From Candidatus Parcubacteria bacterium (lineage in GTDB: Bacteria; Patescibacteriota; Patescibacteriia; UBA1558; GWA2-36-10): a DNA stretch of 64,000 nt. Positions within the stretch are counted from its first letter, which is position 1. Each line of letters starts with the position of its first letter. Made by a program: the position numbers and the translations under genes. The stretch covers positions 7,204 through 71,203 of the forward strand of contig JABJNO010000024.1 in the NCBI GenBank assembly GCA_018664825.1, read 5' to 3'. The notes below the pieces were generated by a model. It was not told the origin of the DNA and ran no database searches. It saw nothing but the letters and a program-made list of their open reading frames with translations. Below, in pieces: positions 6,708 to 45,713 of this stretch.

Positions 6708-7715
6708 CTAATTAGAATCAAAAGCCAAGAAAAATCCTTGTTTAGCTCTCTTGATAAATTGAGGCCTATTGAGCTTTAGGGTTTCAATAATGCCTTTAGG
6801 TGACAAATCATAGCCCTCTATCTCTATATTTTTACCATCAACCTCAGCTGTAGCCATGACTGGCTGTGGCTCACCGATGGCATAAGCCAATTTTACCAAT
6901 ACTTCTTTGGCTTGATGCTTTTTGAGGTACTCAACAGCTAAATATCTAGCCATATAGGCCGCTGACCTATCTACCTTGGTACTGTCTTTGCCAGAAAAAG
7001 CTCCTCCGCCTACAGGAATCTGTGGTCCATAGTTGTCTGCTGTGATTTTACGTCCAGTCAGACCAGTATCAGCCTCAAATCCCCCCGATACAAATGGTCC
7101 GGCTGGGTTGATGTATAGTTTTTTATAATCTGATACTACCTGATCTACGATTTCTTTTTTCAAAAAATCTTTGAGCTCCTCAAAATCCACCTCCTCGCTA
7201 TGCTGAGTAGAAAGTACAACTGACTCTACCTTGTCCCCATCTAGAGTCACCTGAGCCTTGCCGTCTGGCCCTAGGGCCTTGGCAAATTTTGATTTACCCT
7301 CTTGCCTGACTCTCTCTAGTCTTCTGACAAGCCTTGTTGCCAGGACGTGTTCTAATGGAAGTAGCTCCTCTGTCTCAGAAGTAGCATAACCGACCATGAT
7401 TCCCTGATCTCCTGCTCCACCAGTATCTACTCCGTTGGCAATATCTGGACTCTGCCTGACAATATTGACCAAAATATCCAGCTCATCGTCATAGCCAATA
7501 TCTTTGTAGATTTGGCGAGCAATTTTATCGGCCTCAAATTTTGCCCTTGATGTTATCTCTCCTATTATTACCAATTGTCCGTGTCCCCCTAGAGTCTCTA
7601 CCGCTACCCTACTATTTGGATCTTGTCTTAGGCATTCGTCCAAAATAGCGTCTGAGATTTGATCACAAACTTTGTCAGGGTGTCCCATGGTGATGTTTTC
7701 TGCTGTCTTTAGCAT
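6708..7715 (-). CDS. metK: S-adenosylmethionine synthetase (compact, 335 aa)
   Basis: GHPDKVCDQISDAILD, GGGAFSGKD and DTYGG-like motifs; shortened C-terminus. Confidence 0.9.
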   Translation of the reverse strand: MLKTAENITMGHPDKVCDQISDAILDECLRQDPNSRVAVETLGGHGQLVIIGEITSRAKFEADKIARQIYKDIGYDDELDILVNIVRQSPDIANGVDTGGAGDQGIMVGYATSETEELLPLEHVLATRLVRRLERVRQEGKSKFAKALGPDGKAQVTLDGDKVESVVLSTQHSEEVDFEELKDFLKKEIVDQVVSDYKKLYINPAGPFVSGGFEADTGLTGRKITADNYGPQIPVGGGAFSGKDSTKVDRSAAYMARYLAVEYLKKHQAKEVLVKLAYAIGEPQPVMATAEVDGKNIEIEGYDLSPKGIIETLKLNRPQFIKRAKQGFFLAFDSN

Positions 7716-7736: not shown

Positions 7737-7878
7737 AAAAAATTTCTCCTCAAAAAGGAGAAATATAATGTAAACATCATCTTCCCCTTTTTAGGGGTTG
7801 GATTTAGCACCGTTCCTATAAGGATGGTTGCCGGCGGGTCGTCGAGCCAATTCTCTCACCGCACTCTTGATAACTAAA
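7737..7878 (-). ncRNA. SAM-I (S-box) riboswitch with intrinsic terminator in the metK leader
   Basis: Minus-strand transcript GUUAUCAAGAGUGCGGUGAGAGAAUUGGCUCGACGACCCGCCGGCAACC...ACGGUGCUAAAUCCAACCCCUAAAAAGGGGAAGAUGAUG matches the S-box consensus (UUAUCAAGAG..GGNGGAGGGA..GCAACC..GGUGCUAA.UCC), followed by hairpin UUUCUCC-UUUUUGA-GGAGAAA plus U-tract just upstream of the metK ATG. Confidence 0.8.
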
Positions 7879-16567: not shown

Positions 16568-17251
16568 CTAATCTATAGAAATTAGTTTGATACTAAAGAT
16601 TAGGGTTGAATTTGGTGGTATTGGACCAACGGCAGTTGAGCCATAGCCCAATTCAGAAGGAATAGTCAATTTTCTTTCTTCACCTATCTTCATACCAATC
16701 AAACCTTGATCCCAACCAGTTATAACCTGTCCTTGCCCAACGGTAAAGACAAAAGGCTCTCTTCCTATACTAGAATCAAATTCTGTACCATCTTCTAAAG
16801 TACCTGTATAGTCTACACTGACTGAATCACCAGTTTTGACAACTTGATCACCACTACCTTCTACTAAAATTTCTGTTTTTAATTCCATTTGATTTTGATT
16901 ATTGTTGTTATTGTTATTATTTTCTGAAATTTCAGGTTCTTCATCTACTATTACTCCTGTTATTTCTATTTTTTCTGGAAAGAAAAATTTACCATCTTTG
17001 GTCAAATAAGAAAACACTTCCCTGCCATCCGAAAGATTGATAGATATTTTATACAAGTCACCTTCTTCGGTTATTTCACCAACGACAATGGTTTCACCTA
17101 TTTCAAGTAATTCTTCATTGATAAACTTTTCTGTTATAGCTTTGGCCTTATCTTTTCCTATGGCGCCAAAGTTGGGACTGGTAAATACCATATAACCAAG
17201 AGACCCTACTGATATTATTGCCAAAACAATAATGATTATTATCTTATTCAT
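16568..17251 (-). CDS. membrane-anchored FKBP-type peptidyl-prolyl cis-trans isomerase with internal poly-Asn tract
   Basis: VDYTGTLEDGTEFDSS..FVFTVGQGQVITGWDQGLIGMKIGEERKLTIPSELGYG; N-terminal TM; NNNNNNNNQNQ encoded by an (ATT/GTT)n run around 16895-16925. Confidence 0.85.
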   Translation of the reverse strand: MNKIIIIIVLAIISVGSLGYMVFTSPNFGAIGKDKAKAITEKFINEELLEIGETIVVGEITEEGDLYKISINLSDGREVFSYLTKDGKFFFPEKIEITGVIVDEEPEISENNNNNNNNQNQMELKTEILVEGSGDQVVKTGDSVSVDYTGTLEDGTEFDSSIGREPFVFTVGQGQVITGWDQGLIGMKIGEERKLTIPSELGYGSTAVGPIPPNSTLIFSIKLISID

Positions 17252-17358
17252 GAATTTTTAGTTTAATTATTTAGCTTATCAATTATACTATATTACTGAT
17301 TAAGGTCAAATATGAACAACAAAAAAACAAGCCTAACTAAGACCTGTTTTAATTAAAT

Positions 17359-18012
17359 TTATCTGCATTCACAGGCTGGATAATCTGTCTTAGTTGAAAA
17401 ATCAGGACATGGCGGATCCATAGGACTACAACCAGCTGGTACATATATCAATTTGCATTCACAGGCTGGATAATCTGTCAGATAAGCACTACCAATACCT
17501 CTATAACCAATGCAAGATTCAATTGAATTGGAACACTGTGTGCCATCTGGCTCTGGAAGTAAATCATCATTATCTACAATAGCATCATCATCTTCACCTT
17601 TGGGGTTCAAATCATAATCTTCTCCCACCAAACCATCGACTTCTTCTCCTGTGAGTATATCATCGTTTTCTACACACTCTCCAACACTACAATCCTCTGG
17701 ACACTCTTCTAAAAATCTAAGATCTCCCTGACAGGTTCCATTTGAACATACTTGGCCATAGACATCTCCATTGTGACATCTATCACAGTCCAAATCTACA
17801 TTACACTGGTAGACCGGCACTGTCACCTCATCCCCAATAGTGACTATGGGTGTTAGCTCGTTTACTACACTATTTGCCTCTTCTATATCTTTGTCAAAAA
17901 ATCCTGGACCAAGATCAAATGGTGCTGGGCTAGTATCATCACCACAACCCGTTATGAGCAAAGGAATAACTAACACAAAAAGTATAAAATATAATTTATT
18001 TATTTTTAGCAT
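17359..18012 (-). CDS. cysteine-rich acidic lipoprotein
   Basis: Lipobox LLITGC; about 20 Cys; C-terminal duplicated TDYPACEC(K/R) encoded by a ~26-bp direct DNA repeat (17363-17395 and 17454-17481). Confidence 0.55.
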   Translation of the reverse strand: MLKINKLYFILFVLVIPLLITGCGDDTSPAPFDLGPGFFDKDIEEANSVVNELTPIVTIGDEVTVPVYQCNVDLDCDRCHNGDVYGQVCSNGTCQGDLRFLEECPEDCSVGECVENDDILTGEEVDGLVGEDYDLNPKGEDDDAIVDNDDLLPEPDGTQCSNSIESCIGYRGIGSAYLTDYPACECKLIYVPAGCSPMDPPCPDFSTKTDYPACECR

Positions 18013-18184
18013 ATTTTTACTTAAATAATAATATGGCCGCAGTCCACCTTACTTGACTTCGCCATTCACATTGAATCTAGCTTATCAAAAAAACAGGATT
18101 ATAACAATCCAGTTCTTTTTGACAGGAACAACAAAACAATACATGAACCTTTTTTAATAACAACGATTAAAGGTCTTGATTATT

Positions 18185-18364
18185 TTATGCTGAAACAACT
18201 TCTTTCTTTACCTTGTGCTTGGCTTTACAATCAATACAATATAGTAGTTGATCTTTTTTTTGAATATTTAGAGTAACTTCAAATAAGTCACTGGACTCTA
18301 CTCCACATTTTTGACAATATCTAGATTGCCCAGTTGCAAATTTTTTTATTTGATCTTTTTTCAT
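18185..18364 (-). CDS. small zinc-ribbon protein (59 aa, below the ORF-track cutoff)
   Basis: MKKDQIKKFATGQSRYCQKCGVESSDLFEVTLNIQKKDQLLYCIDCKAKHKVKKEVVSA with two CxxC pairs. Confidence 0.4.
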   Translation of the reverse strand: MKKDQIKKFATGQSRYCQKCGVESSDLFEVTLNIQKKDQLLYCIDCKAKHKVKKEVVSA

Positions 18365-18495
18365 ATATTTTTATAATTTCAAAATCTTAATAAGCGAGTT
18401 AATCATACCAAAAAAACTCACAAATGTCAATAAAATAAGGCATTTTAAGCTAGTAGAGACAATAGGACGATATTTAGGCCCTTTTTAAAGAATGG

Positions 18496-18526
18496 TTGAC
18501 AAAATTGCTATTTTATAGTAAAAATA
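18496..18526 (+). promoter_or_regulatory. putative sigma-70 promoter TTGACA-17-TAAAAA upstream of the 18577 gene
   Basis: Perfect -35 at 18496-18501; weak -10. Confidence 0.35.
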
Positions 18527-18576
18527 TAACCCTGTCATAACCATATGACATGTTCCTACAATAGAAAGTGATAATC

Positions 18577-18894
18577 ATGCCACAAAAGAAACACCTTTTC
18601 TTCTCAGCTCGACAGAACGCACATTCTACTGGTGACGGACTCATTCTCTGGTACGTAAAAGAGGACGAAGAATGCCCAGGAGTACCAGAGCTTGTAGAGG
18701 TATCAGAAGTTATGGAAGTTCATGAAAATGAGCCAATCCCGACAAGTACTTGGGATGACGCCAAGTATCTAGGGATCGGAGCCTTCCATCAAAAAGGACC
18801 TGGATTTGCAACTACAGATTTTTCCCCCAACGACACGGATGATTTAGCCGCTGACCTTGCTAGCGATTATCCCTTCTATGATGTCTATGAATAA
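18577..18894 (+). CDS. hypothetical acidic protein (GC-richer islet)
   Basis: SD GAAAGTGATAATC-ATG (track ORF begins 9 nt earlier); followed by two hairpin terminators 18920-18995. Confidence 0.45.
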   Translation: MPQKKHLFFSARQNAHSTGDGLILWYVKEDEECPGVPELVEVSEVMEVHENEPIPTSTWDDAKYLGIGAFHQKGPGFATTDFSPNDTDDLAADLASDYPFYDVYE

Positions 18895-19004
18895 GTCTCT
18901 ACGGAGACAGGTTCCCCCGAGCGCCCACCTATAAAGGGTGCTCATTTTTTTATTTAAAAAAACAAGCTTTACAGCTTGCTTCTTATTTTTGTATTTGTAT
19001 AAAA

Positions 19005-19606
19005 TTAATGGTTCCGTGGACCTAATAGCCAGTATGGCGTCAGCGCGCCAACACCGTTACCTTCTTCATAAACAGTGTCCTCTCGCCCTCCATCATTTGC
19101 CATCTTATACGCGCCAGCTTCAAGGTAGGTAGCTATAATATATGTTTGCCTATCTGCAGTAACATGATAAAGATAGCCCCGCCCCAAATCATCCCAGACA
19201 GTTTGTCCTTCCACTAGTGATGGATCTAGAGGGCATGATGTATGAAGTAAGCCCATACTAAATAGCCCACCAATTGGTAAACCATCACAGTTATCCTCTG
19301 GCGGGTTTACCCCAGTGCCATTTAAAAATCCTTCTACGTCAGCAGTTGGATTAGGACCACAACTTAAATTTGAATCCTTTGTCCCCCCATTAACATCCTC
19401 TGCATCACCACAAGGATATACGCCATAGTGTTCATAATATATTTTCAAAGCAAGTCGAAAATCATCTAACTCATGAAGACGTACAGCATCACGAGCCTTG
19501 GCTTTGACGGTATTTAAATTTATTATAGACACAGTAGAGAGTATTCCAATAATAGCAATTACAACTAACAATTCGACAAGCGTAAAACCTAATTTATTAT
19601 GTGCCA
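19005..19606 (-). CDS. type IV pilin-like protein (prepilin N-terminal cleavage/methylation domain), solitary copy
   Basis: MAHNKLGFTLVELLVVIAIIGIL; start trimmed from 19652 to the ATG at 19606. Confidence 0.75.
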
Positions 19607-19653
19607 TTATTTTATACATAAATTTATTATACCAGAAAAATAAAAAGTTCAAA

Positions 19654-19718
19654 AGTTACTTTAGGGTAACAAAAAAACAGGATTAAAAATCCAGTTCTTT
19701 TGGCAGGGGCGGTGGGAC
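19654..19718. repeat. ~65-bp repeat, copy 1: AAGTTCAAAAGTTACTTTAGGGTAACAAAAAAACAGGATTAAAAATCCAGTTCTTTTGGCAGGGG (includes a copy of the tRNA-Trp 3' end CCCCTGCCA)
   Basis: Near-identical to 20414-20480; degenerate third copy around 18095-18140. Confidence 0.7.
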
Positions 19719-19826
19719 GATGTTAGAACCTTTATTGACAAAAATAAAGATATATAGCATTATAATATGATTTGTTCAATTGGTTCATTACATGGTTGCT
19801 AAGCAACCTTTTCCGGAGGTAAAGAA

Positions 19827-20360
19827 ATGAAGGTAACTGTTCTTGTTTTAGGTCTTGTGATTCTCTTGGGTGGTGTGCTTTTTAAAGAAGGTATTGCCGT
19901 TGTCTTGGGCACTCTACTGTTTATAGGTAGCATAACAAGCTTTTCAAAACCAAAACACCGTAACAACCCCCCTACTAATAAGCGTCATCTTAATGATTCA
20001 AAAAGAAGGGACGACTTAACCGAGGCTGAGCTACTAGCTCTTCAAGAAACTATAGAAAACTATCTTTTTGAAAGATTTAATACAATCAGATTATCTGGTG
20101 TATCTAGATATCCAAAGATAGGTGAAGTTTTTTTGATAAACCATATAAGCTGTAGGGAAGATGTATCTAAACGTCTAGTAGGCAAAGCCTTAAAAGCTAT
20201 CGTGGTAGATTATGGTTCACCTAATTATTTTTCTGCTTGTTTTGTTGGAGATAATAAGGCTATTTGGGATCTACCATATCCACATAACAAAAAAAACATA
20301 GGACCTGGACCCAAATTCGAAGAAAAAATTAGACACCGAAAAAACCGACATAAGACCTGA
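19827..20360 (+). CDS. membrane-anchored hypothetical protein (177 aa)
   Basis: SD GGAGGTAAAGAA-ATG; N-terminal TM VLVLGLVILLGGVLF; sits between the two 65-bp repeats. Confidence 0.5.
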   Translation: MKVTVLVLGLVILLGGVLFKEGIAVVLGTLLFIGSITSFSKPKHRNNPPTNKRHLNDSKRRDDLTEAELLALQETIENYLFERFNTIRLSGVSRYPKIGEVFLINHISCREDVSKRLVGKALKAIVVDYGSPNYFSACFVGDNKAIWDLPYPHNKKNIGPGPKFEEKIRHRKNRHKT

Positions 20361-20413
20361 GTAAGTCTCAAGAACTACTCCCCCTGTACATCGCGTGCGG
20401 GGTTTTTTATTTA

Positions 20414-20480
20414 AAAAGTTCGAAAGTTACTTTAGGGTAACAAAAAAACAGGATTAAAAATCCAGTTCTTTTGGCAGGGG
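20414..20480. repeat. ~65-bp repeat, copy 2, the native tRNA-Trp trailer/terminator (GGATTAAAAATCC hairpin plus T-tract)
   Basis: Abuts and overlaps the 3' end of tRNA-Trp. Confidence 0.7.
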
Positions 20481-20548
20481 TACTAGGATTCGAACCCAGT
20501 CTTGTGGTTTTGGAGACCACCGTGCTAGCCAATTGACACTATACCCCC
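20472..20548 (-). tRNA. tRNA-Trp (anticodon CCA), CCA end encoded
   Basis: GGGGGTATAGTGTCAATTGGCTAGCACGGTGGTCTCCAAAACCACAAGACTGGGTTCGAATCCTAGTACCCCTGCCA folds as a cloverleaf; anticodon loop CUCCAAA. Confidence 0.85.
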
Positions 20549-20576
20549 TCGACACAATACTCCCAAAAAATTGAGA

Positions 20577-20732
20577 TTATTTAGTCTCTTTGTGTTGTGT
20601 ATGGTTTTTACACTTTTGACAATATTTTTTAAGCTCCAATCTTTCCTTTACCATCTTTTTGTTGCGATGGCTGTGATAGTTTATACTATGACATTCAGTA
20701 CATTCAAGCTTTGCTAGATTATCTTGTGACAT
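20577..20732 (-). CDS. rpmG: 50S ribosomal protein L33 (51 aa, below the ORF-track cutoff)
   Basis: [51 protein letters not shown] with CxxC...CxxC and [10 protein letters not shown] hallmark. Confidence 0.85.
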
Positions 20733-20757
20733 ATCGTTTTTATTACTTAAATAAATC

Positions 20758-20833
20758 TGGAGCCATCCGTCGGACTCGAACCGACGACCGACGGTTTACA
20801 AAACCGTTGCTCTACCAACTGAGCTAGGATGGC
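20758..20833 (-). tRNA. tRNA-Thr (anticodon UGU), CCA end encoded
   Basis: GCCATCCTAGCTCAGTTGGTAGAGCAACGGTTTTGTAAACCGTCGGTCGTCGGTTCGAGTCCGACGGATGGCTCCA. Confidence 0.85.
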
Positions 20834-20979
20834 AAATATATTAAATAATCACCCTTTATCAAGAGTATAATATAAGGATAACGGGATAAATTATAGACAA
20901 ATACAGAAGAAAAGTCAAGATGTAGTGTGCGCCTTCACTTTTAAATAAAATCACCCTTGTAAAACAAGGGTGATATGTT

Positions 20980-21177
20980 TTAAGAAGATTTCTTTTCGGA
21001 CAAAACTTTGATAATTTCATCAGTTTCACCGCCCCTGATTACACCTACCAAGCTTACCCGTCCAGTGTCGTGTTGCTCATACCAACGACGACAAATTTCG
21101 GTAGCTGAAGCAGATATACCCATCGGCTCCTTGTGAAATGTACCATCTTGCCTTCTGACAATTGCCAACCAATTCAT
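20980..21177 (-). CDS. hypothetical protein (65 aa), last gene of the heat-shock operon
   Basis: SD AAAGGAGATAACC-ATG; followed by terminator hairpin 20941-20975. Confidence 0.4.
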   Translation of the reverse strand: MNWLAIVRRQDGTFHKEPMGISASATEICRRWYEQHDTGRVSLVGVIRGGETDEIIKVLSEKKSS

Positions 21178-21211
21178 GGTTATCTCCTTTGTTTGAGTGT
21201 GCGATTATGAA

Positions 21212-22312
21212 TTAAAACCAAGATTTTTTATCTTTTATTAATTCTTTATTTAATTCTTCCAACAACTGTTTTTGTTTTTTACTCAGTTTGGTCGGAACAT
21301 CTACATTGATTATCACTACTTGATCTCCTCTACCTCGGCTTTTTAGCCTATTTACTCCTTTGCCTTTGAGGATAAACTTTTTAGCACTTGGCGTACCAGC
21401 TGGAATCTTTAACTTTACTTTACCATCTATAGTTTTGACCTCTATCTGACTGCCCAGCGCTGCCATAGTAAAAGGTATATCATATTCTGAGATTAAATCA
21501 AATCCTTGTCGCTCAAATCCTTTTTCTGCAACAACTACTATATTTGCATAGAGATCACCAGCAGGAGCTCCATTTTTGCCTGCATTACCTTGTCCTGCTA
21601 GGCGGATAGCTTGTCCATTGTCTATGCCGGCTGGTATTTCTACATTGATATCTACATTTTCAGTAGTCACTCCAGTAGCGCTACAATTCCCACATTTATC
21701 CTTGATAGTTTTGCCTTGACCCTTACAGTCTGGGCAGACAGTCTGCATACGAAAAGTACCAAGTACAGTTGTACTTATTCGACCACTACCAGCACAAGAC
21801 TTACATTGATCAAAAGAATCTCCTTTGTCTGCTCCTGTACCTTTACAAGGTTCGCAAGAATTTTCTTTTCGGATAGAAATATTTTTGGAAGTACCAAAGA
21901 CTGCTTCTTTGAGAGATATATCTAATTCTACTTCTATATCAGTACCTCTGTTGGCACGACCGCCTCCGGCTGGTCCGCCACCACCAAACATACTACCAAA
22001 AATATCCCCCAAATCAAAATCTGCATTTTGACCGCCACCAAAACCCTGGGAAAAATCAAAACCCTGTCCAAAAGGATTACCGCCACCCATACCACCTTGG
22101 CCATCAAAGGTAGTGCCAAACTGATCGTATTGTTGGCGCTTTTCTTTGTTGCCTAGGACCTGATAGGCTTCATTTATCTCTTTGAACTTTTCAATATCTC
22201 CACTGGCTTTATCAGGATGATGCTCGTGAGCAAGTTTGCGAAAGGCGCGCTTGATATCAGCATCATTCGCACCTTTCTCAACTCCTAATATTTTGTAATA
22301 ATCTTTTCCCAT
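21212..22312 (-). CDS. dnaJ: molecular chaperone DnaJ
   Basis: J domain YYKILGV..HPDK, G/F-rich linker, four CxxCxGxG zinc-finger repeats. Confidence 0.95.
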   Translation of the reverse strand: MGKDYYKILGVEKGANDADIKRAFRKLAHEHHPDKASGDIEKFKEINEAYQVLGNKEKRQQYDQFGTTFDGQGGMGGGNPFGQGFDFSQGFGGGQNADFDLGDIFGSMFGGGGPAGGGRANRGTDIEVELDISLKEAVFGTSKNISIRKENSCEPCKGTGADKGDSFDQCKSCAGSGRISTTVLGTFRMQTVCPDCKGQGKTIKDKCGNCSATGVTTENVDINVEIPAGIDNGQAIRLAGQGNAGKNGAPAGDLYANIVVVAEKGFERQGFDLISEYDIPFTMAALGSQIEVKTIDGKVKLKIPAGTPSAKKFILKGKGVNRLKSRGRGDQVVIINVDVPTKLSKKQKQLLEELNKELIKDKKSWF

Positions 22313-32459: not shown

Positions 32460-32948
32460 TTATCTAATGACCTTGATTGCTGCAGTTTGATATTTATCAC
32501 AAGATCCTATGGTCACAACTCCGTTTGCATCTTTGAGAAAATAATAACCTGTGCTAGTACCTACGACTGAACTAGATTTTGGATCAAATGGAACAGAGCC
32601 TATATAGCCATTGGTTACTAACGGGTCTAGCCAAATTATAGCATTGGTAGTAGTGGCCCCACAAGCATAATCTGCGTCTGTACCAGCATAATTGGCAATC
32701 ATACAAGTTGTATTGGCTGTAATACAATCTGCAGATGTAGTCACAAATGTACCGCTATTGTCAGAGGCATAAGTAGACCAGGCATCAGCAATACTAGTAA
32801 TATCAGACCAACGTTGAGCATCATTTGCTTCTCCGAGACGTTTGGCTGGATTGATAGCTACAAAAGTAGCAGCTGCGAGTAACGCAATAATAGCTACTAC
32901 TATTATCAGCTCTACCAAAGTAAAGCCCTTGTTTTTTATCTTCTTCAT
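32460..32948 (-). CDS. type IV major pilin-like protein (tandem paralogue 3 of 3)
   Basis: KGFTLVELIIVVAIIALLAAATFVAINPAKRLGEANDAQRWSD prepilin N-terminus; conserved C-term GSCDKYQT. Confidence 0.8.
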   Translation of the reverse strand: MKKIKNKGFTLVELIIVVAIIALLAAATFVAINPAKRLGEANDAQRWSDITSIADAWSTYASDNSGTFVTTSADCITANTTCMIANYAGTDADYACGATTTNAIIWLDPLVTNGYIGSVPFDPKSSSVVGTSTGYYFLKDANGVVTIGSCDKYQTAAIKVIR

Positions 32949-32975
32949 ACTAATCTTTTTTTAAAATTTAATATA

Positions 32976-33470
32976 TTATCTAGTAATTTCGATAGTATTG
33001 GTTTGGTATTTAGCACAAGAGCCTACAACAACAGCTCCGTTGGCATCTTTATGAAAAAAATACCCAGTAGTAGTACCTGTACCCCCGCTTGATTGTGGAT
33101 CATAGGGAATATCACCAATATAACTACCCGCCACCAAAGGATCTAACCAAATTGTACCATTGGTAGTACTAGCACAAGCAGTATTAGCACTAGTAGTACT
33201 AGTTGCTCCATCAAGCGTAGAAATCATACAATTGATATTACCACTTATGCAGGGCGAACTAGTTGCATTTGAACCACCATTGTCAGCCACATAAGCAGCC
33301 CAAGCATCAGCAATAGCAGAAATATCAGACCAACGTTGAGCGTCATTTGCTTGTCCAATACGCTTGGCTGGATTAGTAGCTACAAAAGTAGCGGCTGCTA
33401 GTAATGCAATAATAGCTACTACTATAATCAGCTCCACCAAAGTAAAGCCCTTATTTTGTTTTTTCTTCAT
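32976..33470 (-). CDS. type IV major pilin-like protein (tandem paralogue 2 of 3)
   Basis: As above; variable central Cys-containing segment. Confidence 0.8.
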   Translation of the reverse strand: MKKKQNKGFTLVELIIVVAIIALLAAATFVATNPAKRIGQANDAQRWSDISAIADAWAAYVADNGGSNATSSPCISGNINCMISTLDGATSTTSANTACASTTNGTIWLDPLVAGSYIGDIPYDPQSSGGTGTTTGYFFHKDANGAVVVGSCAKYQTNTIEITR

Positions 33471-33495
33471 CCTAATTTATTTTAAATTAAATGTT

Positions 33496-33996
33496 TTATC
33501 GGACAACTTGAATATTAGCAGTTTGATATTTATCACAAGAGCCTACAGCGACAACCCCGTTGGCATCTTTATGAAAGTAATACCCGGTAGTAGTACCTGT
33601 ACCACCACTTGATTTTGGATCAAAAGGAATACTACCAATATAACCTCCGTCAACCAAAGGATCTAACCAGATTGTACCATTTGTAGTACTAGCACAAGCA
33701 GCATCTGCATTAGCAGTACTACTAGCGGTTCCAGTATAAGTACCTATCATGCAATTTATATTTCCAGTAATACAACCCACAGACGTAGTTGCATCTGTGC
33801 CACTGTTTTCAGCCAAATAAGTAACCCAAGCATCAGCAATAGCAGTAACATCAGACCAACGTTGAGCGTCATTTGCTTCTCCAAGACGCTTGGCTGGATT
33901 GATAGCTACAAAAGTAGCGGCTGCAAGTAACGCAATAATAGCTACTACTATTATCAGCTCTACCAAAGTAAAACCCTTATTTTGTATTTTGTTCAT
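33496..33996 (-). CDS. type IV major pilin-like protein (tandem paralogue 1 of 3)
   Basis: As above. Confidence 0.8.
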   Translation of the reverse strand: MNKIQNKGFTLVELIIVVAIIALLAAATFVAINPAKRLGEANDAQRWSDVTAIADAWVTYLAENSGTDATTSVGCITGNINCMIGTYTGTASSTANADAACASTTNGTIWLDPLVDGGYIGSIPFDPKSSGGTGTTTGYYFHKDANGVVAVGSCDKYQTANIQVVR

Positions 33997-34102
33997 AGTA
34001 ATTTTAGTTTAAATTAAAATATATTATATATAATAGCAATTTTTCGAAATTTTGCCAATCAAAGCTTTTTATATTATAGCACAAAATCTAAAAAAATAAT
34101 AT

Positions 34103-35896
34103 TTAGAGGCGTTTTAAATCCATATTAACCATAATATTATAAGTTTTATTATCTACATCATATTTTATTACTTCATATCCTTTTGTTAGCTCCCAATCTG
34201 ACAATGGGCCTATATTTTGAGCAGAAATAACCCCTGACAAGTACTCATCTACCTCCTGCTCATTTATTTTGAAAAAAGTAAACTCTGCATCTATAGTAAG
34301 AGGGTCGCCCAAGTTGTATTCATCTTCTGAGGGGGATATTTTTTTTATATCAGCCAAAACAGCTTTGGGTAAAATATAAAATCCCTCCTCTTGTGTAGAC
34401 TCTAGATCAAGGCTACCAAGGGTCCTGGTATCCAACAGGTCATAAATATCTTTTGTGATTTCCTGATATCCATATTCTACACCCCTACTTGTTATCACAT
34501 CACTCACCTTGTGCTCTTTTGCAGAAATAAAATTATCGACACCAGTCTCATTTGTCGTGGCTACAAAAATTTCTTTATCAAAAGAATAATTATCCAAAAC
34601 AACAACAATATCTTCCTGATCATCGATAACTGCATCTTTTTGACCAAGACCGGGTATAAAGCTCGAAATCTTATCTCGGAACATAAAACCAGCCCCTGCC
34701 AATAATAATATAGCTAAAATAATAATATACAAAGGTTTTATTTTGAGCTTCTTTTTTTCTTCTTCAACTATCTCCTCGCCATCTTCATTGACTGTTTTGA
34801 CTGGGACAATTGGCTCTTTAGAAACTTCTTCTTTTTTTTCTCTAGAAAATTTTTGATAAAAGTTGATGACTGATTTAGAGTACCCAAGTTTGGCCAATCC
34901 CAAAGCATTTACAAACTTGGTATTGGCTACTGGCTTTGGTAAAAAACTAGCATCAATAAAAGAATAGCCTACTATAGCCGGGATACTAAGATTGTCTCCA
35001 AAATATTTATCTATACCTTTCATCTGAGCCAAACCACCAATCAAGACTATTTGTTCTATTTTTTTATTGTAAGTAGTCTGAAAATAATTTATAAAATTTT
35101 TCAGCTCATCTGCCAGTGGCTGAAGCTGTCCTTGAATAATCAACATTATTTCCCCATCATTGGCACTAGCATCCAATCCTACACTTTGTTTTCTTTCATT
35201 GGCTACTGAACGAGGAATATCCATCTTTTGAGCCAAGGCATCATCAATGTCGTTCCCGGCAATATTTATATTTATAGAATCACGAATACCAGAATGATCA
35301 AAAACAGAAGCAATGGTTGTCCTTGATCCTATATCCAATAAAAGAGTCACTTTTTTCTCAAGAGAATCTGATAATCCCGCAAAAGAGCTAATCGCTTCAC
35401 TGGTAATGCCCTCTATCTCAAAATTCATAGAATCAAATACATCCACAAAACTGGCAATCACATCTTTTTCAGCAGCTGTAAAAAATATTTCTTTATTCTC
35501 TCCTTTGTCTCCTAGTATTCTCATGTCAGTAACTAGATTATCAAAAGCCTCTGGAATCATTTCTTCTGCTCGCCTTTTGGCAACCTCTTTGATATCTTTG
35601 TCTTTTACGCTTTTTGGTATCGTCAAAATCTTGGAAAATACTTTTGACTCAGGAATTGACAAAAATACCTTATAGTCCTCTGCTTTACTAATAGGCTTTG
35701 GTTGGGCACTAGAAAAAAGTTGCTTCAAAGCAACCTTGAATTTTTCTTTATCCAAAATTCTACCATCCTCTACAATATCTGGCACCAAATTTACACGAGA
35801 ATAGGCCTCTACTTTGTATCCTTTTCTTTCTTTATCCAAAACAACAGCTTCGATAGAAAAATCTGCAATATCTATTCCTATTATGTTTTTTGCCAT
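34103..35896 (-). CDS. pilM: type IV pilus assembly protein PilM fused to a TM helix and PilN/PilO-like extracytoplasmic domain
   Basis: IIGIDIADFSIEAVVL actin-like ATPase fold (~380 aa), then TM LYIIILAILLLAGAGFMF and ~200-aa C-terminal domain. Confidence 0.7.
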   Translation of the reverse strand: MAKNIIGIDIADFSIEAVVLDKERKGYKVEAYSRVNLVPDIVEDGRILDKEKFKVALKQLFSSAQPKPISKAEDYKVFLSIPESKVFSKILTIPKSVKDKDIKEVAKRRAEEMIPEAFDNLVTDMRILGDKGENKEIFFTAAEKDVIASFVDVFDSMNFEIEGITSEAISSFAGLSDSLEKKVTLLLDIGSRTTIASVFDHSGIRDSININIAGNDIDDALAQKMDIPRSVANERKQSVGLDASANDGEIMLIIQGQLQPLADELKNFINYFQTTYNKKIEQIVLIGGLAQMKGIDKYFGDNLSIPAIVGYSFIDASFLPKPVANTKFVNALGLAKLGYSKSVINFYQKFSREKKEEVSKEPIVPVKTVNEDGEEIVEEEKKKLKIKPLYIIILAILLLAGAGFMFRDKISSFIPGLGQKDAVIDDQEDIVVVLDNYSFDKEIFVATTNETGVDNFISAKEHKVSDVITSRGVEYGYQEITKDIYDLLDTRTLGSLDLESTQEEGFYILPKAVLADIKKISPSEDEYNLGDPLTIDAEFTFFKINEQEVDEYLSGVISAQNIGPLSDWELTKGYEVIKYDVDNKTYNIMVNMDLKRL

Positions 35897-35919
35897 AATT
35901 TATATTTTAAAATTTTTAT

Positions 35920-36789
35920 TTAAAGACAATACTTGGTACAAGCTGAACAATCTGTATTACAATAAGTAGAACATTCTGCCGTTGGAGACGTACGAGCTAT
36001 GCCTACTCCCCCACAAGAACCACCTGTATAATCACAACCTTCACCACCAACATAAGTAGCTGAACAGGTATTGTTGCAATAAGGGCCACCGGCTTGTCTA
36101 GTGCCATCTCCGCAAGATTCATTTACACCATTACCATCATCACAAGTCTCGTCTGCTACGATCGCCGTACAATCAGCATTGCAGGCATCTGTATCTGGAG
36201 TACCATCTCCACAATATTCAGTAACCTCATTGCCATCATCGCAAACTTCTGAGCCAGTAGTTGCTCCATCTCCACACACCTGACAAACCCCACAATCAGC
36301 ACTACAGTCACCACAAGCCTCAATACCATTGCAGGTGCCGTCGCCACACCAAATATAAGATTTGTAAGACGTCTTGGACTCATTGAAAGAATCAATACTT
36401 ATGGGTGAACTAGATACATTTATTTTGACGACTGCTGTTTTGGTCCAACTACCTAGATCTGATGTACTAGTTGCTGTCGAAGTGACCGTTTTGAATCCAG
36501 CAACAATATTGGTACTAATAGTAGAACTACAAGCAACATCACTAGTCAATAAATTAAAACTACCAGAAATAGCTGTACTAGATGCAATCCTCACCAACGC
36601 ATCATCAATGCAAGTACTTATATCTATCGCTGCCTCCTGGCCTTCACTGATATGATAGTTTGCTAGCTTGTCATTGGTGTTGAGCATAGCAACAATAATA
36701 CTAGACAATACTGTCAGAGTAGTGATCATAATCACCAAAATCAAAGCTATGGCTCCTTTATTTTTTTCTTTTTTAATTTTATTCTTCAT
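35920..36789 (-). CDS. membrane-anchored protein with Myxococcus-type cysteine-rich repeats (CGDGxxxxxExCDDGN)
   Basis: VCGDGATTGSEVCDDGNEV, YCGDGTPDTDACNADC, ETCDDGNGVNESCGDGT; N-terminal hydrophobic anchor without the canonical prepilin Glu. Confidence 0.6.
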   Translation of the reverse strand: MKNKIKKEKNKGAIALILVIMITTLTVLSSIIVAMLNTNDKLANYHISEGQEAAIDISTCIDDALVRIASSTAISGSFNLLTSDVACSSTISTNIVAGFKTVTSTATSTSDLGSWTKTAVVKINVSSSPISIDSFNESKTSYKSYIWCGDGTCNGIEACGDCSADCGVCQVCGDGATTGSEVCDDGNEVTEYCGDGTPDTDACNADCTAIVADETCDDGNGVNESCGDGTRQAGGPYCNNTCSATYVGGEGCDYTGGSCGGVGIARTSPTAECSTYCNTDCSACTKYCL

Positions 36790-36795
36790 ATATTT

Positions 36796-38130
36796 CTAAT
36801 AATCTCCTTGTGATTGTAAAGCTGAAATTTCCTCATCTGTTAAAGCTCTATTATAAAATCTCACTTCATCTATTATACCATCAAAGGTGCCCGAGGTGCC
36901 TGAATAGCTTAGATGAGGTTCATAGGTATCATTAACTAATATTGGAACCGTCCCATCATAGATAACGGACGAAATGGGCCCTGTATCTTTTTCATAAACA
37001 TATACCTGTAGTCTATTATTATTTAGGTCATAAACACAAGCTATATGATAAGTATTTCCTACTACAATAGATGAATCAGCCGAAGCGACCTCAACGTATG
37101 TTGTTCCATCGAAAACTTTGCAATTTGCAGCCTCAGTAGTGGAAAGTAACTCCATCACATAACCTCTCTGGTATGCCCACTGAGTTTTGCTCATAATTTT
37201 ATGTTGAACCGAACCGTTAAATGCTTCCGGCTTTACCCAGGCTGTGATAGTAAATTGATCACTAAAATTCAAATCATCGGGGTCAGTAGTAGATTCAGTA
37301 GCAGGATCATAAGTAATACAAGTTGAAGGATCGTCATCATATTCAAAATCCAGTGCATAAGTACTACCGTCCACTATACCCGCAGCCCAAGTAGGTGTGC
37401 TGCCAGGTGGATAACAACCAGCTGGATTATCACCAATACTATCAACCGTAGTTGTACCCGTGCCCTCTTCAAGTCTCCACCAAGTCACTAAACCGCTTGG
37501 TTTTTCACTATACACTACTACCGTACTAGATGCTGTAGAGGTAGCTGACAACATAGCCTGCCGATTATTTTGACTACTGACTGACAAGGTGGTGGTAATG
37601 TTTATATTGGAATTGGCGGTAGAGGTCGCAGTCGAGGTTGCAAATGTCAGACTAGTATCCAAAACTTCAACATCATCTGAACTAAGATAATACTTGTTCC
37701 CAACGGCAAATGTATCAACACTACAATTGTTATAATGTCCGTTGCCATTCATATTTGGATAACAAGCCATGACAATCCTCCTGTCACTCAGGGTGACTCT
37801 CACTCCGCCACCATTTTTTACGCAAGTACCAGGTAGGTAATCATCATTTTCAAAATACAAAGCCAAAGCCTGAGGAGAAGCACCAAAGGTTGAACAATCT
37901 CCACTTGTATCTTTTAGCATGCCATCTGCATTTTTTACCAAATAATCAATAGCATTGAGTGCTATACGACGGTTACGCGAAGTTTCAACTCCGGCGCCTA
38001 CTTTGACTGCAGTATTTCCTAAAGTGAGGTTGAAACTCACAACAGCAGTAAGTAAAATACCAACAATAGCCAAATATACTATGGCTTCTACTAAAGTAAA
38101 TCCTTTTTTGTTTTTTGTTTTTTGTTTCAT
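36796..38130 (-). CDS. prepilin-type N-terminal domain protein with C-terminal LamG-like (concanavalin-type) jelly-roll domain
   Basis: KGFTLVEAIVYLAIVGILL; FDGIIDEVRFYNRALTDEEISAL LamG signature. Confidence 0.7.
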   Translation of the reverse strand: MKQKTKNKKGFTLVEAIVYLAIVGILLTAVVSFNLTLGNTAVKVGAGVETSRNRRIALNAIDYLVKNADGMLKDTSGDCSTFGASPQALALYFENDDYLPGTCVKNGGGVRVTLSDRRIVMACYPNMNGNGHYNNCSVDTFAVGNKYYLSSDDVEVLDTSLTFATSTATSTANSNINITTTLSVSSQNNRQAMLSATSTASSTVVVYSEKPSGLVTWWRLEEGTGTTTVDSIGDNPAGCYPPGSTPTWAAGIVDGSTYALDFEYDDDPSTCITYDPATESTTDPDDLNFSDQFTITAWVKPEAFNGSVQHKIMSKTQWAYQRGYVMELLSTTEAANCKVFDGTTYVEVASADSSIVVGNTYHIACVYDLNNNRLQVYVYEKDTGPISSVIYDGTVPILVNDTYEPHLSYSGTSGTFDGIIDEVRFYNRALTDEEISALQSQGDY

Positions 38131-41100: not shown

Positions 41101-41231
41101 CCGACACCATAAAAATTTTTATACGAATTTGTCGCTACATAAAAAACACCAGTTGCTAAGATAGCAAAAATAGCCAAAGCTATAATTAGCTCTATAACAG
41201 AAAATCCTTTGTTTTTTATATTTATTTTCAT
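38130..41231 (-). CDS. giant (1033 aa) prepilin-type N-terminal domain protein with C-terminal LamG-like domain (putative tip adhesin/minor pilin)
   Basis: KGFSVIELIIALAIFAILATGVF; FHGEIDEVRISSD; Ser/Thr/Gly/Tyr-rich beta-rich body. Confidence 0.7.
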   Translation of the reverse strand: MKINIKNKGFSVIELIIALAIFAILATGVFYVATNSYKNFYGVGDRQTVTEFADEGIEIVRAIRNNSWQTIETVSGDGAKGLAKNVSGYWEFSGTSDTSGDLTRIVTITNAQRDASWDITDSGTEDPNTKKVVVTVSGTGIDNYVLTTYVTNWSYKTWEQSDWSGVGDREFWSDLTMASSSYSNISTTTVGELALSQLAGSETSWADWADLIPDSRAAYKAWEDFYNYELGADGRSLYLIGTTNFDFIKYDISRAAAGIFRPEWKRAVPWHTQNVAFHPDGDYAYINKRLPADGTDNVCVVDLTVLTAISGSGATCYDITYPGGTYYAMDMVVNAAGDALYMFDSYGYGYAFEITGGGATLTVTNAAQLISAGSGSGYAINKVYLDESGAEPYIYIVGDDYLGEFKKMGINDNRWFSSTSTNAYVHATYVSDITDMEFLEQSSGKNRFVLGNEGSTEEFIIVEDQGTSLSEIGSYNVGTSQGYAEVIPDVDEDMAFIHYYNPGGIYAIDITNRASPADGVLSNPGFGRKSNYTTFDQSIYSTTSRGFFVGGHDGTTNTTTLYFIGKTRTNPTGGTFDYKRTITLGENGNVSGGAHVDFPVVISETNDYFKTTGNGGNVYNEYGYDVIFTSDSDGTLVLDHEIEYYASTTGEYVAWVKVDSLAADTDIYMFYGNSNVTSTTEHIDEVWSSNYKMVTHMTDSGIGGVGSSVNSSNGWFKYDIDSPSESSGRVGRAQYFDGDYDYLTVENNSDKAQGTDDFTVEFWMKPDSAQDQTYSSTLWFGNGDVNDADAWLFRTYLSTKKLYFHMGHNNVTNLGGMYVDTAAITDDVWTYIATTVDRDVGYQAYINTVIKSGCTASPCDDTTAYDIGNVYDVNIGKDWSSKAYFFHGEIDEVRISSDVKSTDWMTTGYNNINSTTTFYTIGAETQMGYNTPGSLYSSILDLGSTDKEIKSLTVEQNVPAGCDLQITAEVSDDVTFATGVTSEVYSDASAGYYTSSTDATMNGKRYLRYKAALTACSSNANTPTLYGARFNYR

Positions 41232-41232
41232 T

Positions 41233-42321: not shown

Positions 42322-42332
42322 TTCAAAAATTA

Positions 42333-43562: not shown

Positions 43563-43568
43563 ATATAA

Positions 43569-45257: not shown

Positions 45258-45262
45258 AGTAT

Positions 45263-45709: not shown

Positions 45710-45713
45710 AGCT

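What the first reader, a model, noticed from the sequence alone, without database searches (positions are those of the whole stretch)
19654..20548. Direct ~65-bp repeat containing the 3' end of tRNA-Trp flanks a one-gene segment; rpmG-tRNA-Trp synteny is broken where secE-nusG would be expected
Copy 2 (20414-20480) is the native trailer of tRNA-Trp, with the last 9-10 nt of the tRNA followed by a GGATTAAAAATCC hairpin and T-tract. Copy 1 (19654-19718) reproduces the same 65 bp, including the tRNA 3' end CCCCTGCCA, 760 bp away. A degenerate third copy lies near 18095-18140. The segment between copies 1 and 2 holds a single membrane-protein gene (19827-20360). Established knowledge: duplication of a tRNA 3' end as a direct repeat is the footprint of site-specific integration at tRNA genes. 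In most bacteria rpmG-tRNA-Trp is followed by secE-nusG-rplK, which is absent here. Inference: a past integration or excision event at tRNA-Trp has left att-like scars. No integrase remains in the window, so this is a remnant rather than an active element.
Basis: partly seen in the sequence, partly recalled or inferred. Interest (0 to 1): 0.55.

Follow-up and report, generated by a model that had tools for sequence, protein, structure and literature searches.

The report
tRNA-Trp-anchored gene cassette array scars
The 69-base repeat is real and marks one slot in a small array of single-gene cassettes stacked behind the tRNA-Trp gene of an uncultured Patescibacteria bacterium, a miniature integrase-less version of the known habit of mobile DNA inserting at tRNA genes.

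Summary
The repeat is real. It is 69 nt, at 19641-19709 and 20412-20480, and 68/69 identical. Copy 2 holds the last 9 nt of tRNA-Trp plus its terminator hairpin. At least 12 independent assemblies carry it unchanged.

It is not an isolated scar. Left of copy 1 lies a 24-nt "Psi arm", a T-arm-like stretch with a 5-nt insertion. Two transition-decayed copies of arm plus core lie at 18451-18483 and 18120-18152.

These modules divide the 3.2 kb between tRNA-Trp and a conserved FKBP gene into cassettes: p177; pilin plus p105; Zn-ribbon; p217.

The same Psi family sits downstream of tRNA-Trp, co-oriented, in at least 8 related species, around unrelated ORFan genes. One relative has FKBP 41 nt after the tRNA. 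Another has the Zn-ribbon gene directly after it. The only p177 homologue lies between two Psi modules. A phage-type serine integrase abuts the tRNA-Trp CCA end in two relatives.

Best reading: repeated att-like recombination at the tRNA-Trp 3' end built the array, much like the Dehalococcoides ssrA islands. No recombinase is in the window, so the enzyme is unknown.

The missing secE-nusG is clade-wide and ancestral, not part of this event.

The parts
20758..20833 (-). tRNA-Thr(TGT), first gene of the conserved tRNA-Thr-rpmG-tRNA-Trp block
   Evidence: ARAGORN; Rfam 70.7 bits. The block is conserved in all 32 related species loci.
20577..20732 (-). rpmG (ribosomal protein L33, 51 aa)
   Evidence: Pfam Ribosomal_L33, E = 2e-16.
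20472..20548 (-). Functional tRNA-Trp(CCA), 77 nt, 'type B'. It is the proximal anchor (attB-like gene) of the array.
   Evidence: It is 90% identical to the type-B tRNA-Trp of L022 and L039. Most relatives carry a 74-nt type A.
20412..20480 (-). Direct repeat copy 2: last 9 nt of tRNA-Trp, terminator hairpin, and a second small hairpin (GTTACCCTAAAGTAAC)
   Evidence: The distal half matches the chromosomal trailer of L044.
20382..20402 (+). Terminator-like hairpin of the p177 gene
19827..20360 (+). p177: cassette gene for a 177-aa protein with an N-terminal membrane anchor. Near-orphan family.
   Evidence: ORF. Hydropathy. Only its own cluster among 5.8 G proteins. One 51% homologue among 1.84 G representatives. 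No Pfam, PHROG or PADLOC hit.
19735..19763 (+). Promoter-like site of p177 (TTGACA-17-CATTAT), immediately next to the Psi arm
   Evidence: The promoter and 5'UTR are ~95% identical to L119.
19710..19733 (-). Psi1 arm: T-arm-like stretch AAAGGTTCTAACATCGTCCCACCG carrying the family's 5-nt insertion
   Evidence: A model built only from relatives hits 19733-19701 at E = 8.6e-8 and 50 bits. Alignment A2.
19641..19709 (-). Direct repeat copy 1 (core CCCCTGCCA plus terminator), distal boundary of the p177 cassette. Its end lies just upstream of the pilin promoter.
19005..19610 (-). Type IV pilin-like gene (N-terminal methylation motif), second cassette
   Evidence: Pfam N_methyl, E = 6e-8. Apart from a 42-aa N-terminal motif match in L063, absent from the relatives' loci. 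An extended -10 (TGGTATAAT) was seen by eye.
18577..18894 (+). p105, opposite-strand ORFan in the second cassette
18431..18483 (-). Psi4: decayed arm plus core (18451-18483), followed by a remnant of an older, L020-type tRNA-Trp trailer (GCTTAAAATGCCTTATTTTATT)
   Evidence: Second-best PWM hit of 128,000 positions. 12 of 13 differences from Psi1 are transitions. It aligns to the tRNA-Trp 3' end and trailer of L020.
18402..18430 (-). Promoter of the Zn-ribbon gene (TTGACA-17-TG-TATGAT), conserved in L020
18185..18364 (-). Zn59: 59-aa zinc-ribbon protein gene. In L020 it lies directly after tRNA-Trp.
18086..18152 (-). Psi3: decayed arm plus core (18120-18152) and a well-kept terminator hairpin (18086-18119).
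   Evidence: A Psi module also follows the Zn59 homologue in L061.
17359..18012 (-). p217: Cys-rich lipoprotein-like ORFan, last cassette before FKBP
17324..17350 (-). Terminator-like hairpin ahead of the FKBP promoter
16568..17309 (-). FKBP-type isomerase gene with its conserved promoter (17282-17309). It is the distal conserved anchor of the islet.
   Evidence: Pfam FKBP_C, E = 5e-34. Promoter. Downstream of tRNA-Trp at 41 nt to 4.4 kb in 8 species.

Best explanation
The stretch between tRNA-Trp and the FKBP gene is a small hypervariable islet, built by repeated recombination at one att-like module.

The module has three parts: the tRNA-Trp 3' end (core CCCCTGCCA), the A-tract/hairpin/U-tract terminator that directly follows it, and, on the incoming side, a ~24-nt T-arm-like 'Psi arm'.

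Proposed mechanism. A circularised cassette carries Psi arm + core + hairpin + gene(s). It recombines with the identical core and hairpin behind the chromosomal tRNA. The tRNA stays intact. The cassette ends up directly behind it. A Psi arm + core + hairpin is left at the cassette's far end. Each new event pushes older cassettes and their Psi modules further from the tRNA, where the arms decay by C>T transitions. The hairpins stay useful as terminators that insulate each cassette.

In the window this gives, on the tRNA strand: tRNA-Trp|DR2 - p177 - Psi1|DR1 - pilin, p105 - Psi4 - Zn59 - Psi3 - p217 - FKBP. The reported 69-nt repeat is the youngest attL/attR-like pair.

What is shown: the repeats, the module family, its fixed orientation and its restriction to this locus in all DNA examined, the presence/absence and position differences between genomes, and the terminator fold.

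What is inferred: the circular intermediate and the recombination step.

What is unknown: the enzyme. Candidates are a trans-acting large serine integrase of the kind that abuts the tRNA-Trp CCA end in two relatives, or RecA acting on the 40-70 nt of identity after DNA uptake.
For: 1. The repeat is real, fixed in the population, and includes the tRNA 3' end.

2. All 12 Psi arms from 9 genomes share a 5-nt insertion relative to three real tRNA-Trp 3' ends, so they form one family and are not independent decay products.

3. A model built from relatives only finds window Psi1 at E = 8.6e-8. The 2nd- and 5th-best of 128,000 positions are Psi4 and Psi3, both inside the islet and on the tRNA strand. 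Their differences from Psi1 are 12:1 and 12:2 transitions to transversions.

4. Every arm-containing Psi hit in the relatives' loci lies downstream of tRNA-Trp and is co-oriented with it. None lies in the 8 kb upstream.

5. The genes between modules are unrelated ORFans in either orientation: p177, p116, p54, p202, p100, p159/p144.

6. Empty or less-filled states exist. In L067, FKBP starts 41 nt after the tRNA. In L020, Zn59 directly follows the tRNA and its trailer. In the window that same trailer type follows Psi4, as successive insertion at the tRNA predicts.

7. The only p177 homologue (51% aa) lies in L119 between two Psi modules. The same cassette is therefore bounded proximally by the tRNA in one genome and by a Psi arm in another.

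8. A phage-type large serine integrase (phrog_95, E = 4e-80) lies on the opposite strand, abutting the tRNA-Trp CCA end, in L024 and L064.

9. The Dehalococcoides ssrA islands have the same anatomy (PMC3146451): tandem direct repeats of the 3' end, a conserved element-derived motif just upstream of each repeat, a serine integrase beside attL, and some integrase-less units.
Against: No recombinase lies in the 64-kb window.

No empty-site or circular-junction variant was seen among at least 12 assemblies of this species.

No copy of the module was found on viral contigs.

Cassettes of 0.7-1.5 kb with their own promoters are much smaller than known integrative elements.

The G+C of the p177 segment is the same as its surroundings.

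The integrases in L024 and L064 are flanked by inverted, not direct, repeats and are not next to Psi arms, so their link to the cassettes is only positional.

The rest of the genome could not be scanned for further copies. The metagenome collection searched does not hold this species.
Confidence: 0.6

Rival explanations
1. Ancient duplicated terminators kept alike by gene conversion. In this reading the tRNA-Trp trailer was duplicated once, long ago. The genes between the copies are resident but fast-evolving. The near-identity of the two copies in the window reflects recent gene conversion, not insertion of a cassette.
For: The Psi1 module is orthologous across species, so the duplication as such is old. 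Pairs of trailers are near-identical within genomes but differ between genomes: window 68/69, L026 38/38, L061 40/42. The flanks of p177 are 95% conserved against L119 while the ORF is only 51% identical, which could reflect fast protein evolution in place.
Against: Older modules in the same window (Psi3, Psi4) have decayed and were not homogenised. The genes between modules are unrelated and lie in both orientations. The same cassette is bounded by the tRNA in the window but by a Psi arm in L119. L020 and L067 lack the intervening DNA. Conversion alone cannot create new Psi arms.
Confidence: 0.2
2. By-product of tRNA-Trp gene replacement by a GIY-YIG homing cassette. Relatives carry a GIY-YIG gene plus a complete tRNA-Trp inserted into a split resident tRNA-Trp. 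In this reading the window's repeat would be what remains of the displaced resident tRNA and its trailer.
For: The window carries type-B tRNA-Trp, whereas most relatives have type A. In L022 a type-B tRNA arrives with a GIY-YIG gene inside a split type A. The 13 nt ACCGCCCCTGCCA at copy 1 match type A rather than type B.
Against: The window has no GIY-YIG gene and no 5' tRNA fragment; only 28 nt separate rpmG from tRNA-Trp. Psi arms carry a 5-nt insertion absent from all real tRNA-Trp genes. They also occur in genomes whose type-A tRNA is intact (L041, L059, L061), and on both sides of the cassette in L119. In L022 the Psi module coexists with the split tRNA fragments.
Confidence: 0.08
3. Generic dispersed terminator or REP-like repeat that happens to sit near the tRNA.
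For: The unit is a terminator-like hairpin. Similar A-tract/hairpin/U-tract trailers follow tRNA-Trp in many relatives.
Against: The 64-kb window has no other copy at up to 3 mismatches, and no model hit outside the islet. In 41 related loci, every arm-containing copy is downstream of tRNA-Trp and co-oriented. The repeat includes tRNA sequence.
Confidence: 0.04

Closest known systems
Dehalococcoides ssrA-specific genomic islands (McMurdie et al. 2011, PMC3146451)
   Same: Both are tandem units downstream of a single-copy small-RNA gene. Each unit is bounded by a direct repeat of that gene's 3' end. A conserved element-derived motif lies just upstream of each repeat and does not match the gene itself. 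A large serine recombinase lies on the reverse strand next to attL, here only in relatives L024 and L064. Some units lack any integration gene and were interpreted as cis-mobilisable or fixed.
   Different: The target here is tRNA-Trp, not tmRNA. Units are 0.7-1.5 kb with one or two genes, not islands of several kb. The repeat extends 35-60 nt beyond the RNA gene into its terminator. No integration module is in the window. The host is a Patescibacterium.
Cis-mobilisable elements (CIMEs) and accretion at att sites of ICEs and IMEs (as summarised in PMC3146451 and PMC5704250)
   Same: These are DNA segments flanked by attL/attR-like repeats that encode no recombinase. They accumulate in tandem at one attachment site.
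   Different: Mobilisation in trans has not been shown here. No cognate ICE, IME or prophage is known in this genome. The cassettes are far smaller.
Integrons (own knowledge)
   Same: Both are arrays of mostly single-gene cassettes separated by a repeated, hairpin-forming recombination-type site. New cassettes enter at one end. Cassette content is very variable between relatives.
   Different: There is no IntI tyrosine recombinase, attI or Pc here. Cassettes carry their own promoters and lie in both orientations. The repeated site derives from a tRNA 3' end plus a terminator and is not an attC.
Classical prophage or island integration into tRNA 3' ends by tyrosine integrases (own knowledge; sublocation scheme of Williams 2002)
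   Same: A direct repeat of the tRNA 3' end flanks the insert, the tRNA stays intact, and the site is a hot spot.
   Different: No integrase is adjacent. Only 9 nt of the tRNA lie in the identity block. The rest of the repeat lies downstream of the gene.

Membership tests
tRNA-targeting integrative element (island or prophage) scar | Direct repeat that contains the 3' end of the target tRNA and flanks the insert | tested here: met
   69-nt repeat including the last 9 nt of tRNA-Trp.
tRNA-targeting integrative element (island or prophage) scar | Integrase gene inside the element, next to one att site | tested here: not met
   No recombinase domain in any window ORF of 140 aa or more. No homologue of the L024 integrase. 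It is present at this site only in relatives L024 and L064.
tRNA-targeting integrative element (island or prophage) scar | Relatives with an unoccupied site at the same boundaries | tested here: inconclusive
   L067 and L020 lack the inserted DNA, but they are distant (DnaJ 77% or less). No empty site for the p177 segment itself exists among at least 12 assemblies of the species.
Tandem accretion array / cis-mobilisable elements (Dehalococcoides ssrA-GI type) | Several co-oriented copies of the att repeat downstream of the target gene, delimiting units with different content | tested here: met
   tRNA plus Psi1, Psi4 and Psi3 in the window. Two or three Psi modules in L044, L039, L061 and L119. 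Content is unrelated between genomes.
Tandem accretion array / cis-mobilisable elements (Dehalococcoides ssrA-GI type) | Conserved element-derived motif adjoining each repeat that does not match the target gene | tested here: met
   The Psi arm with its shared 5-nt insertion, in 12 of 12 modules against 3 real tRNAs.
Tandem accretion array / cis-mobilisable elements (Dehalococcoides ssrA-GI type) | Excision or integration by a recombinase supplied in trans | not testable with these tools
   This needs read-level junction data or a recombination assay.
Integron | intI gene with attI and Pc at the head of the array; promoterless co-oriented cassettes ending in attC | tested here: not met
   No integrase. 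Cassettes have promoters and mixed orientation. The site is tRNA-derived.
Dispersed REP- or terminator-type repeat family | Many copies at unrelated loci across the genome | tested here: inconclusive
   None outside the islet in the 64-kb window or in the flanks of 41 related loci. The rest of the genome was not available.
Canonical rpmG-(tRNA-Trp)-secE-nusG-rplK synteny | nusG and rplK directly downstream of rpmG | tested here: not met
   0 of 41 Patescibacteria loci and not in the window, against 47 of 47 Selenomonadales controls. The absence is ancestral to the clade.

The most novel reading that the evidence does not exclude
A clade of Patescibacteria maintains an integron-like gene-cassette platform anchored on tRNA-Trp. 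Its dedicated ~70-nt module (Psi arm + CCA core + terminator hairpin) serves both as the recombination site and as a transcriptional insulator. Through it, single genes for small, fast-diversifying membrane or surface proteins are captured, stacked and exchanged by a recombinase acting in trans, or by RecA after natural transformation. The pattern of 95%-conserved flanks around a 51%-identical ORF (window versus L119) would then reflect exchange or diversifying selection of the cargo within a conserved cassette frame.
Probability: 0.3. Interest if true: 0.72.

Novelty: new variant of a known kind. Interest (0 to 1): 0.45.

Why it matters
Patescibacteria (CPR) have tiny genomes, and little has been described about how they gain genes. 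A conserved tRNA-Trp-linked slot that stacks single ORFan genes would be a concrete route for gene flux and surface variation in these episymbionts. The genes involved are pilin-like, membrane-anchored and Cys-rich secreted proteins.

The locus also gives a defined, testable recombination site (Psi arm + CCA core + hairpin) and a candidate enzyme family (the serine integrase at the same site in relatives).

For annotation, it warns against two errors: treating the lack of secE-nusG after rpmG-tRNA-Trp in this phylum as a rearrangement, and calling these tRNA-end repeats tRNA pseudogenes.

Tried and rejected
1. Psi1 as the remnant of a resident type-A tRNA-Trp displaced by the type-B gene. This was my first idea, based on the 13-nt match. 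I rejected it because all Psi arms share a 5-nt insertion, occur beside intact type-A tRNAs, and flank the cassette on both sides in L119.

2. The 11-mer GGGGGAGTAGT at 20374-20384 as a 5' fragment of a type-A tRNA. The E-value is 2, Rfam gives no support, and the stretch is not conserved in L119. I treat it as chance.

3. The 59-aa Zn-ribbon protein as an rpmG paralogue, suggested by a shared YCQKC word (repeat D14). Pfam gives no L33 match. Dropped.

4. Rfam search at permissive E-values for partial tRNAs across 17300-21000. It found only the two real tRNAs.

5. Scan of JGI metagenome contigs for the hairpin pattern. The ten hits were all unrelated, and the species is not in that collection. 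The question of copies elsewhere in the genome stays open.

6. Viral contig scans for the core + hairpin and for the Psi arm + core. These gave two chance hits and none respectively, so no attP-bearing phage was found.

7. Homologue searches for p177 and Zn59 in the word-indexed protein database. Each returned only itself. The exhaustive search then found the single p177 homologue.

8. Group I intron as an explanation for the GIY-YIG insertions in relatives. Rfam found no hit.

9. Closer relatives via DnaJ (P0004, P0006, P0010). Their contigs end before the tRNA block.
Full report
**Organism and setting.** The window comes from an uncultured member of the Patescibacteria (CPR). Sources label its proteins "Candidatus Parcubacteria bacterium", and the closest species genomes are labelled Komeilibacteria, Parcubacteria or Patescibacteria. 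On the minus strand the order is:

- hrcA-grpE-hsp20-dnaK-dnaJ, then a 65-aa ORF
- tRNA-Thr, rpmG, tRNA-Trp
- a 3.2-kb stretch of small genes
- an FKBP isomerase gene and a P-loop kinase

- The repeat finder reports one 69-nt direct repeat at 19641-19709 and 20412-20480, 68/69 identical.
- A 34-mer from it occurs exactly twice in the window, against none in 100 shuffles.
- tRNA-Trp(CCA) occupies 20472-20548 on the minus strand, so copy 2 includes its last 9 nt.
- On the tRNA strand the repeat reads CCCCTGCCA, then an A-tract/GGAUU-AAUCC hairpin/U-tract, then a second small hairpin. It folds at -12.8 kcal/mol with z = -3.7.
- At least 12 independent assemblies of the same species carry both copies with the same single C/T difference. 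The repeat is therefore neither an assembly artefact nor polymorphic in the sampled population.
- The ORF between the copies (p177, 19827-20360) has a hydrophobic N-terminus, a promoter and a terminator. It has almost no relatives: only its own cluster in one database and one 51% homologue among 1.84 billion representatives.

**secE-nusG.** I used E. coli NusG and L11 (sequences from memory) as tblastn probes. All 47 Selenomonadales loci fetched through their L33 gene have nusG and rplK within about 1.4 kb of rpmG. None of the 41 Patescibacteria loci does, and neither does the window. All 32 related species keep tRNA-Thr-rpmG-tRNA-Trp. The uncoupling from secE-nusG is therefore an old trait of the clade and has nothing to do with the repeat.

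**What lies behind tRNA-Trp in relatives.** The FKBP gene is the recurrent downstream neighbour, at very different distances:

| Locus | Distance from tRNA-Trp to FKBP |
|---|---|
| L067 | 41 nt |
| L049 | about 0.6 kb |
| L022 and L039 | 1.1-1.2 kb |
| L058 | 2.2 kb |
| window | 3.2 kb |
| L043 | 4.4 kb |

The genes in between are unrelated to one another: p177, p116, p54, p202, p100 and a 536-aa membrane protein. Only p159 (L022) and p144 (L026) are homologous.

In L020 the homologue of the window's 59-aa Zn-ribbon gene follows tRNA-Trp directly, behind a trailer and a conserved promoter. In the window that gene lies 2.1 kb further on.

**The Psi module.**
- Just left of copy 1 the window has AAAGGTTCTAACATCGTCCCACCG, which resembles a tRNA T-loop and the acceptor 3' strand.
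- The same arm, followed by ..CCCTGCCA and a trailer hairpin, occurs downstream of tRNA-Trp in L022, L039, L041, L044 (three times), L052, L059 and L061.
- In a joint alignment, all 12 arms share a 5-nt insertion that three real tRNA-Trp 3' ends lack. They are therefore one family, not independent decay products.
- A profile built only from the relatives' arms finds window 19733-19701 at E = 8.6e-8.
Both lie in the islet on the tRNA strand.
- Their differences from Psi1 are 12 transitions to 1 transversion and 12 to 2, mostly C>T. This is the signature of homologous sequence decaying in an AT-rich genome.
- Psi4 is followed by GCTTAAAATGCCTTATTTTATT, the trailer type that follows the real tRNA-Trp in L020, and then by the shared Zn-ribbon promoter.
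- Every arm-containing hit in the related loci is downstream of tRNA-Trp and co-oriented with it. None lies in the 8 kb upstream.

**The p177 cassette elsewhere.** The single p177 homologue (P0123) is on a 1,265-nt contig, L119.
- There the gene is flanked on both sides by Psi arm + core + hairpin. No tRNA is present, and another gene lies before the proximal module.
- The same cassette is therefore bounded by the tRNA in the window and by a Psi arm in L119. This is expected if a later insertion at the tRNA pushed it outward and deposited a new arm.
- The flanks (arm, core, half hairpin, promoter, 5'UTR; window 19682-19830) are about 95% identical.
- The ORF is a mosaic of 46-90% nucleotide identity with indels, and 51% identical at the protein level.

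**Recombinases.**
- No window ORF of 140 aa or more has a recombinase or transposase domain.
- In relatives L024 and L064, a 481-aa large serine recombinase lies on the opposite strand, abutting the CCA end of tRNA-Trp. It matches phrog_95 "integrase" at E = 4e-80 and has the Pfam domains Resolvase, Recombinase and Zn_ribbon_recom.
- In L024 it is followed by ORFan genes and an HNH-endonuclease-like gene.
- The tRNA-Trp 3' end is thus used as an attachment point by an integrase-bearing element in this clade.
- Those integrases are flanked by inverted repeats and are not next to Psi arms, so they are candidates only.

**Interpretation.** The anatomy matches the tandem ssrA islands of Dehalococcoides. 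Those show several direct repeats of the 3' end downstream of the gene, a conserved element-derived motif just upstream of each repeat, a serine integrase beside attL, and some units without integration genes, read as cis-mobilisable or fixed (PMC3146451).

I conclude that the window's repeat is the youngest attL/attR-like pair of a cassette array that grew by successive recombination at the tRNA-Trp 3' end and terminator.

Shown:
- the module family
- its restriction to this locus in all DNA examined, and its fixed orientation
- the occupancy differences between genomes
- the positional shift of one cassette
- the terminator fold

Inferred:
- the circular intermediate
- the enzyme. With 40-70 nt of identity, either a dedicated recombinase or RecA could produce the same products.

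**Main rival.** The alternative is an ancient duplication kept alike by gene conversion. It explains the within-genome identity of trailer pairs (window 68/69, L026 38/38, L061 40/42). It does not explain four things:
- the unrelated cargo
- the undecayed versus decayed modules within one genome
- the new arm in L119
- the unfilled sites in L020 and L067

The GIY-YIG replacement idea and the dispersed-repeat idea are weaker still; see the rival explanations.

**Limits.**
- I could not scan the rest of this genome.
- No read-level evidence of excision is available.
- The nearest relatives' contigs end before the locus.

Noticed in passing
L022 17420-18070 (-); L043 8190-8660; L044 8190-8740; L063 2200-2625; L064 8190-8640; L052 8190-8410: In six related species a 78-81-aa GIY-YIG gene plus a complete tRNA-Trp sits between rpmG and the rest of the locus, next to fragments of a second tRNA-Trp split at the anticodon loop. 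The 5' part (positions 1-41) lies upstream. In L022, L044 and L052 a 3' part lies downstream. The new and old tRNAs can be different types (A, B, C). L044 has a 45-nt exact direct repeat of the anticodon stem-loop. This looks like a homing-type cassette that restores the gene it disrupts. Rfam finds no group I intron there.
   Followed up: partly
L024 8697-10263; L064 8626-10188: A large serine integrase gene abuts the tRNA-Trp CCA end on the opposite strand and is flanked by 66-76-nt inverted repeats that begin at CTGCCA of the tRNA. The last ~27 codons of the integrase lie inside the repeat, so inversion would keep both the tRNA end and the protein C-terminus.
   Followed up: partly
L022, L043, L044, L052, L063, L064 (tRNA fragments); L039 8917-8977; L119 ~195-233: GC-rich inserts lie in otherwise AT-rich DNA. 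The tRNA-Trp fragments carry 27-28-nt palindromes (for example CCCAGCCGCTCGCGAGCAGCTGGG), often right after the anticodon CCA. The Psi arm of L039 and the hairpin of an L119 module carry longer inserts of ~60 and 39 nt. They may be a miniature mobile element family.
   Followed up: no
L043 8656-8753; L046 8247-8365; L048 1065 onward; L042 8231-8273: Structured GC-rich inserts sit exactly at the junction between the tRNA-Trp CCA end and its terminator in several species. One type, of ~100-115 nt, begins TTCGACTCCGTC. L042 has a 43-nt insert. The junction seems to be a preferred insertion point.
   Followed up: no
window 19682-20480 versus L119: The non-coding flanks of the p177 cassette are ~95% identical between two genomes, while the ORF is a mosaic (46-90% nt identity, indels, 51% aa) with one 70-nt block at 90%. 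The cause may be diversifying selection or segmental exchange within a conserved frame.
   Followed up: partly
window 18895-18950 versus L119 ~920-1020: The 3' UTR and terminator of window p105 (AAGTCTCTACGGAGAC...GAGCGCCCACCTATAAAGGGTGCTC) resembles the 3' UTR of the p177 homologue in L119. Cassettes on the opposite strand seem to share regulatory ends (seen by eye).
   Followed up: no
window 20472-22312 versus L020, L022, L026: The tRNA-Thr-rpmG-tRNA-Trp block is co-oriented with dnaK-dnaJ in the window, L024 and L039. It is inverted relative to them in L020, L022 and L026, so an inversion breakpoint lies between dnaJ and tRNA-Thr. Several contigs of this species and its relatives also end at this block.
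   Followed up: no
window 7774-7876 (-): A SAM-I riboswitch (Rfam 66 bits) lies directly upstream of the S-adenosylmethionine synthetase gene (6708-7715).
   Followed up: no
window 32460-48821: A type IV pilus cluster (three pilin-like genes, PilM-like, two giant pilin-domain proteins, PilC- and PilB-type genes) lies next to a response regulator, a CheA-like kinase with a CheW domain, and an MCP. This looks like a chemosensory module coupled to pili in a Patescibacterium.
   Followed up: no
window 17354-17389 and 17444-17479: A 36-nt repeat (89% identical) lies inside the Cys-rich p217 gene and encodes the TDYPACEC motif twice.
   Followed up: no
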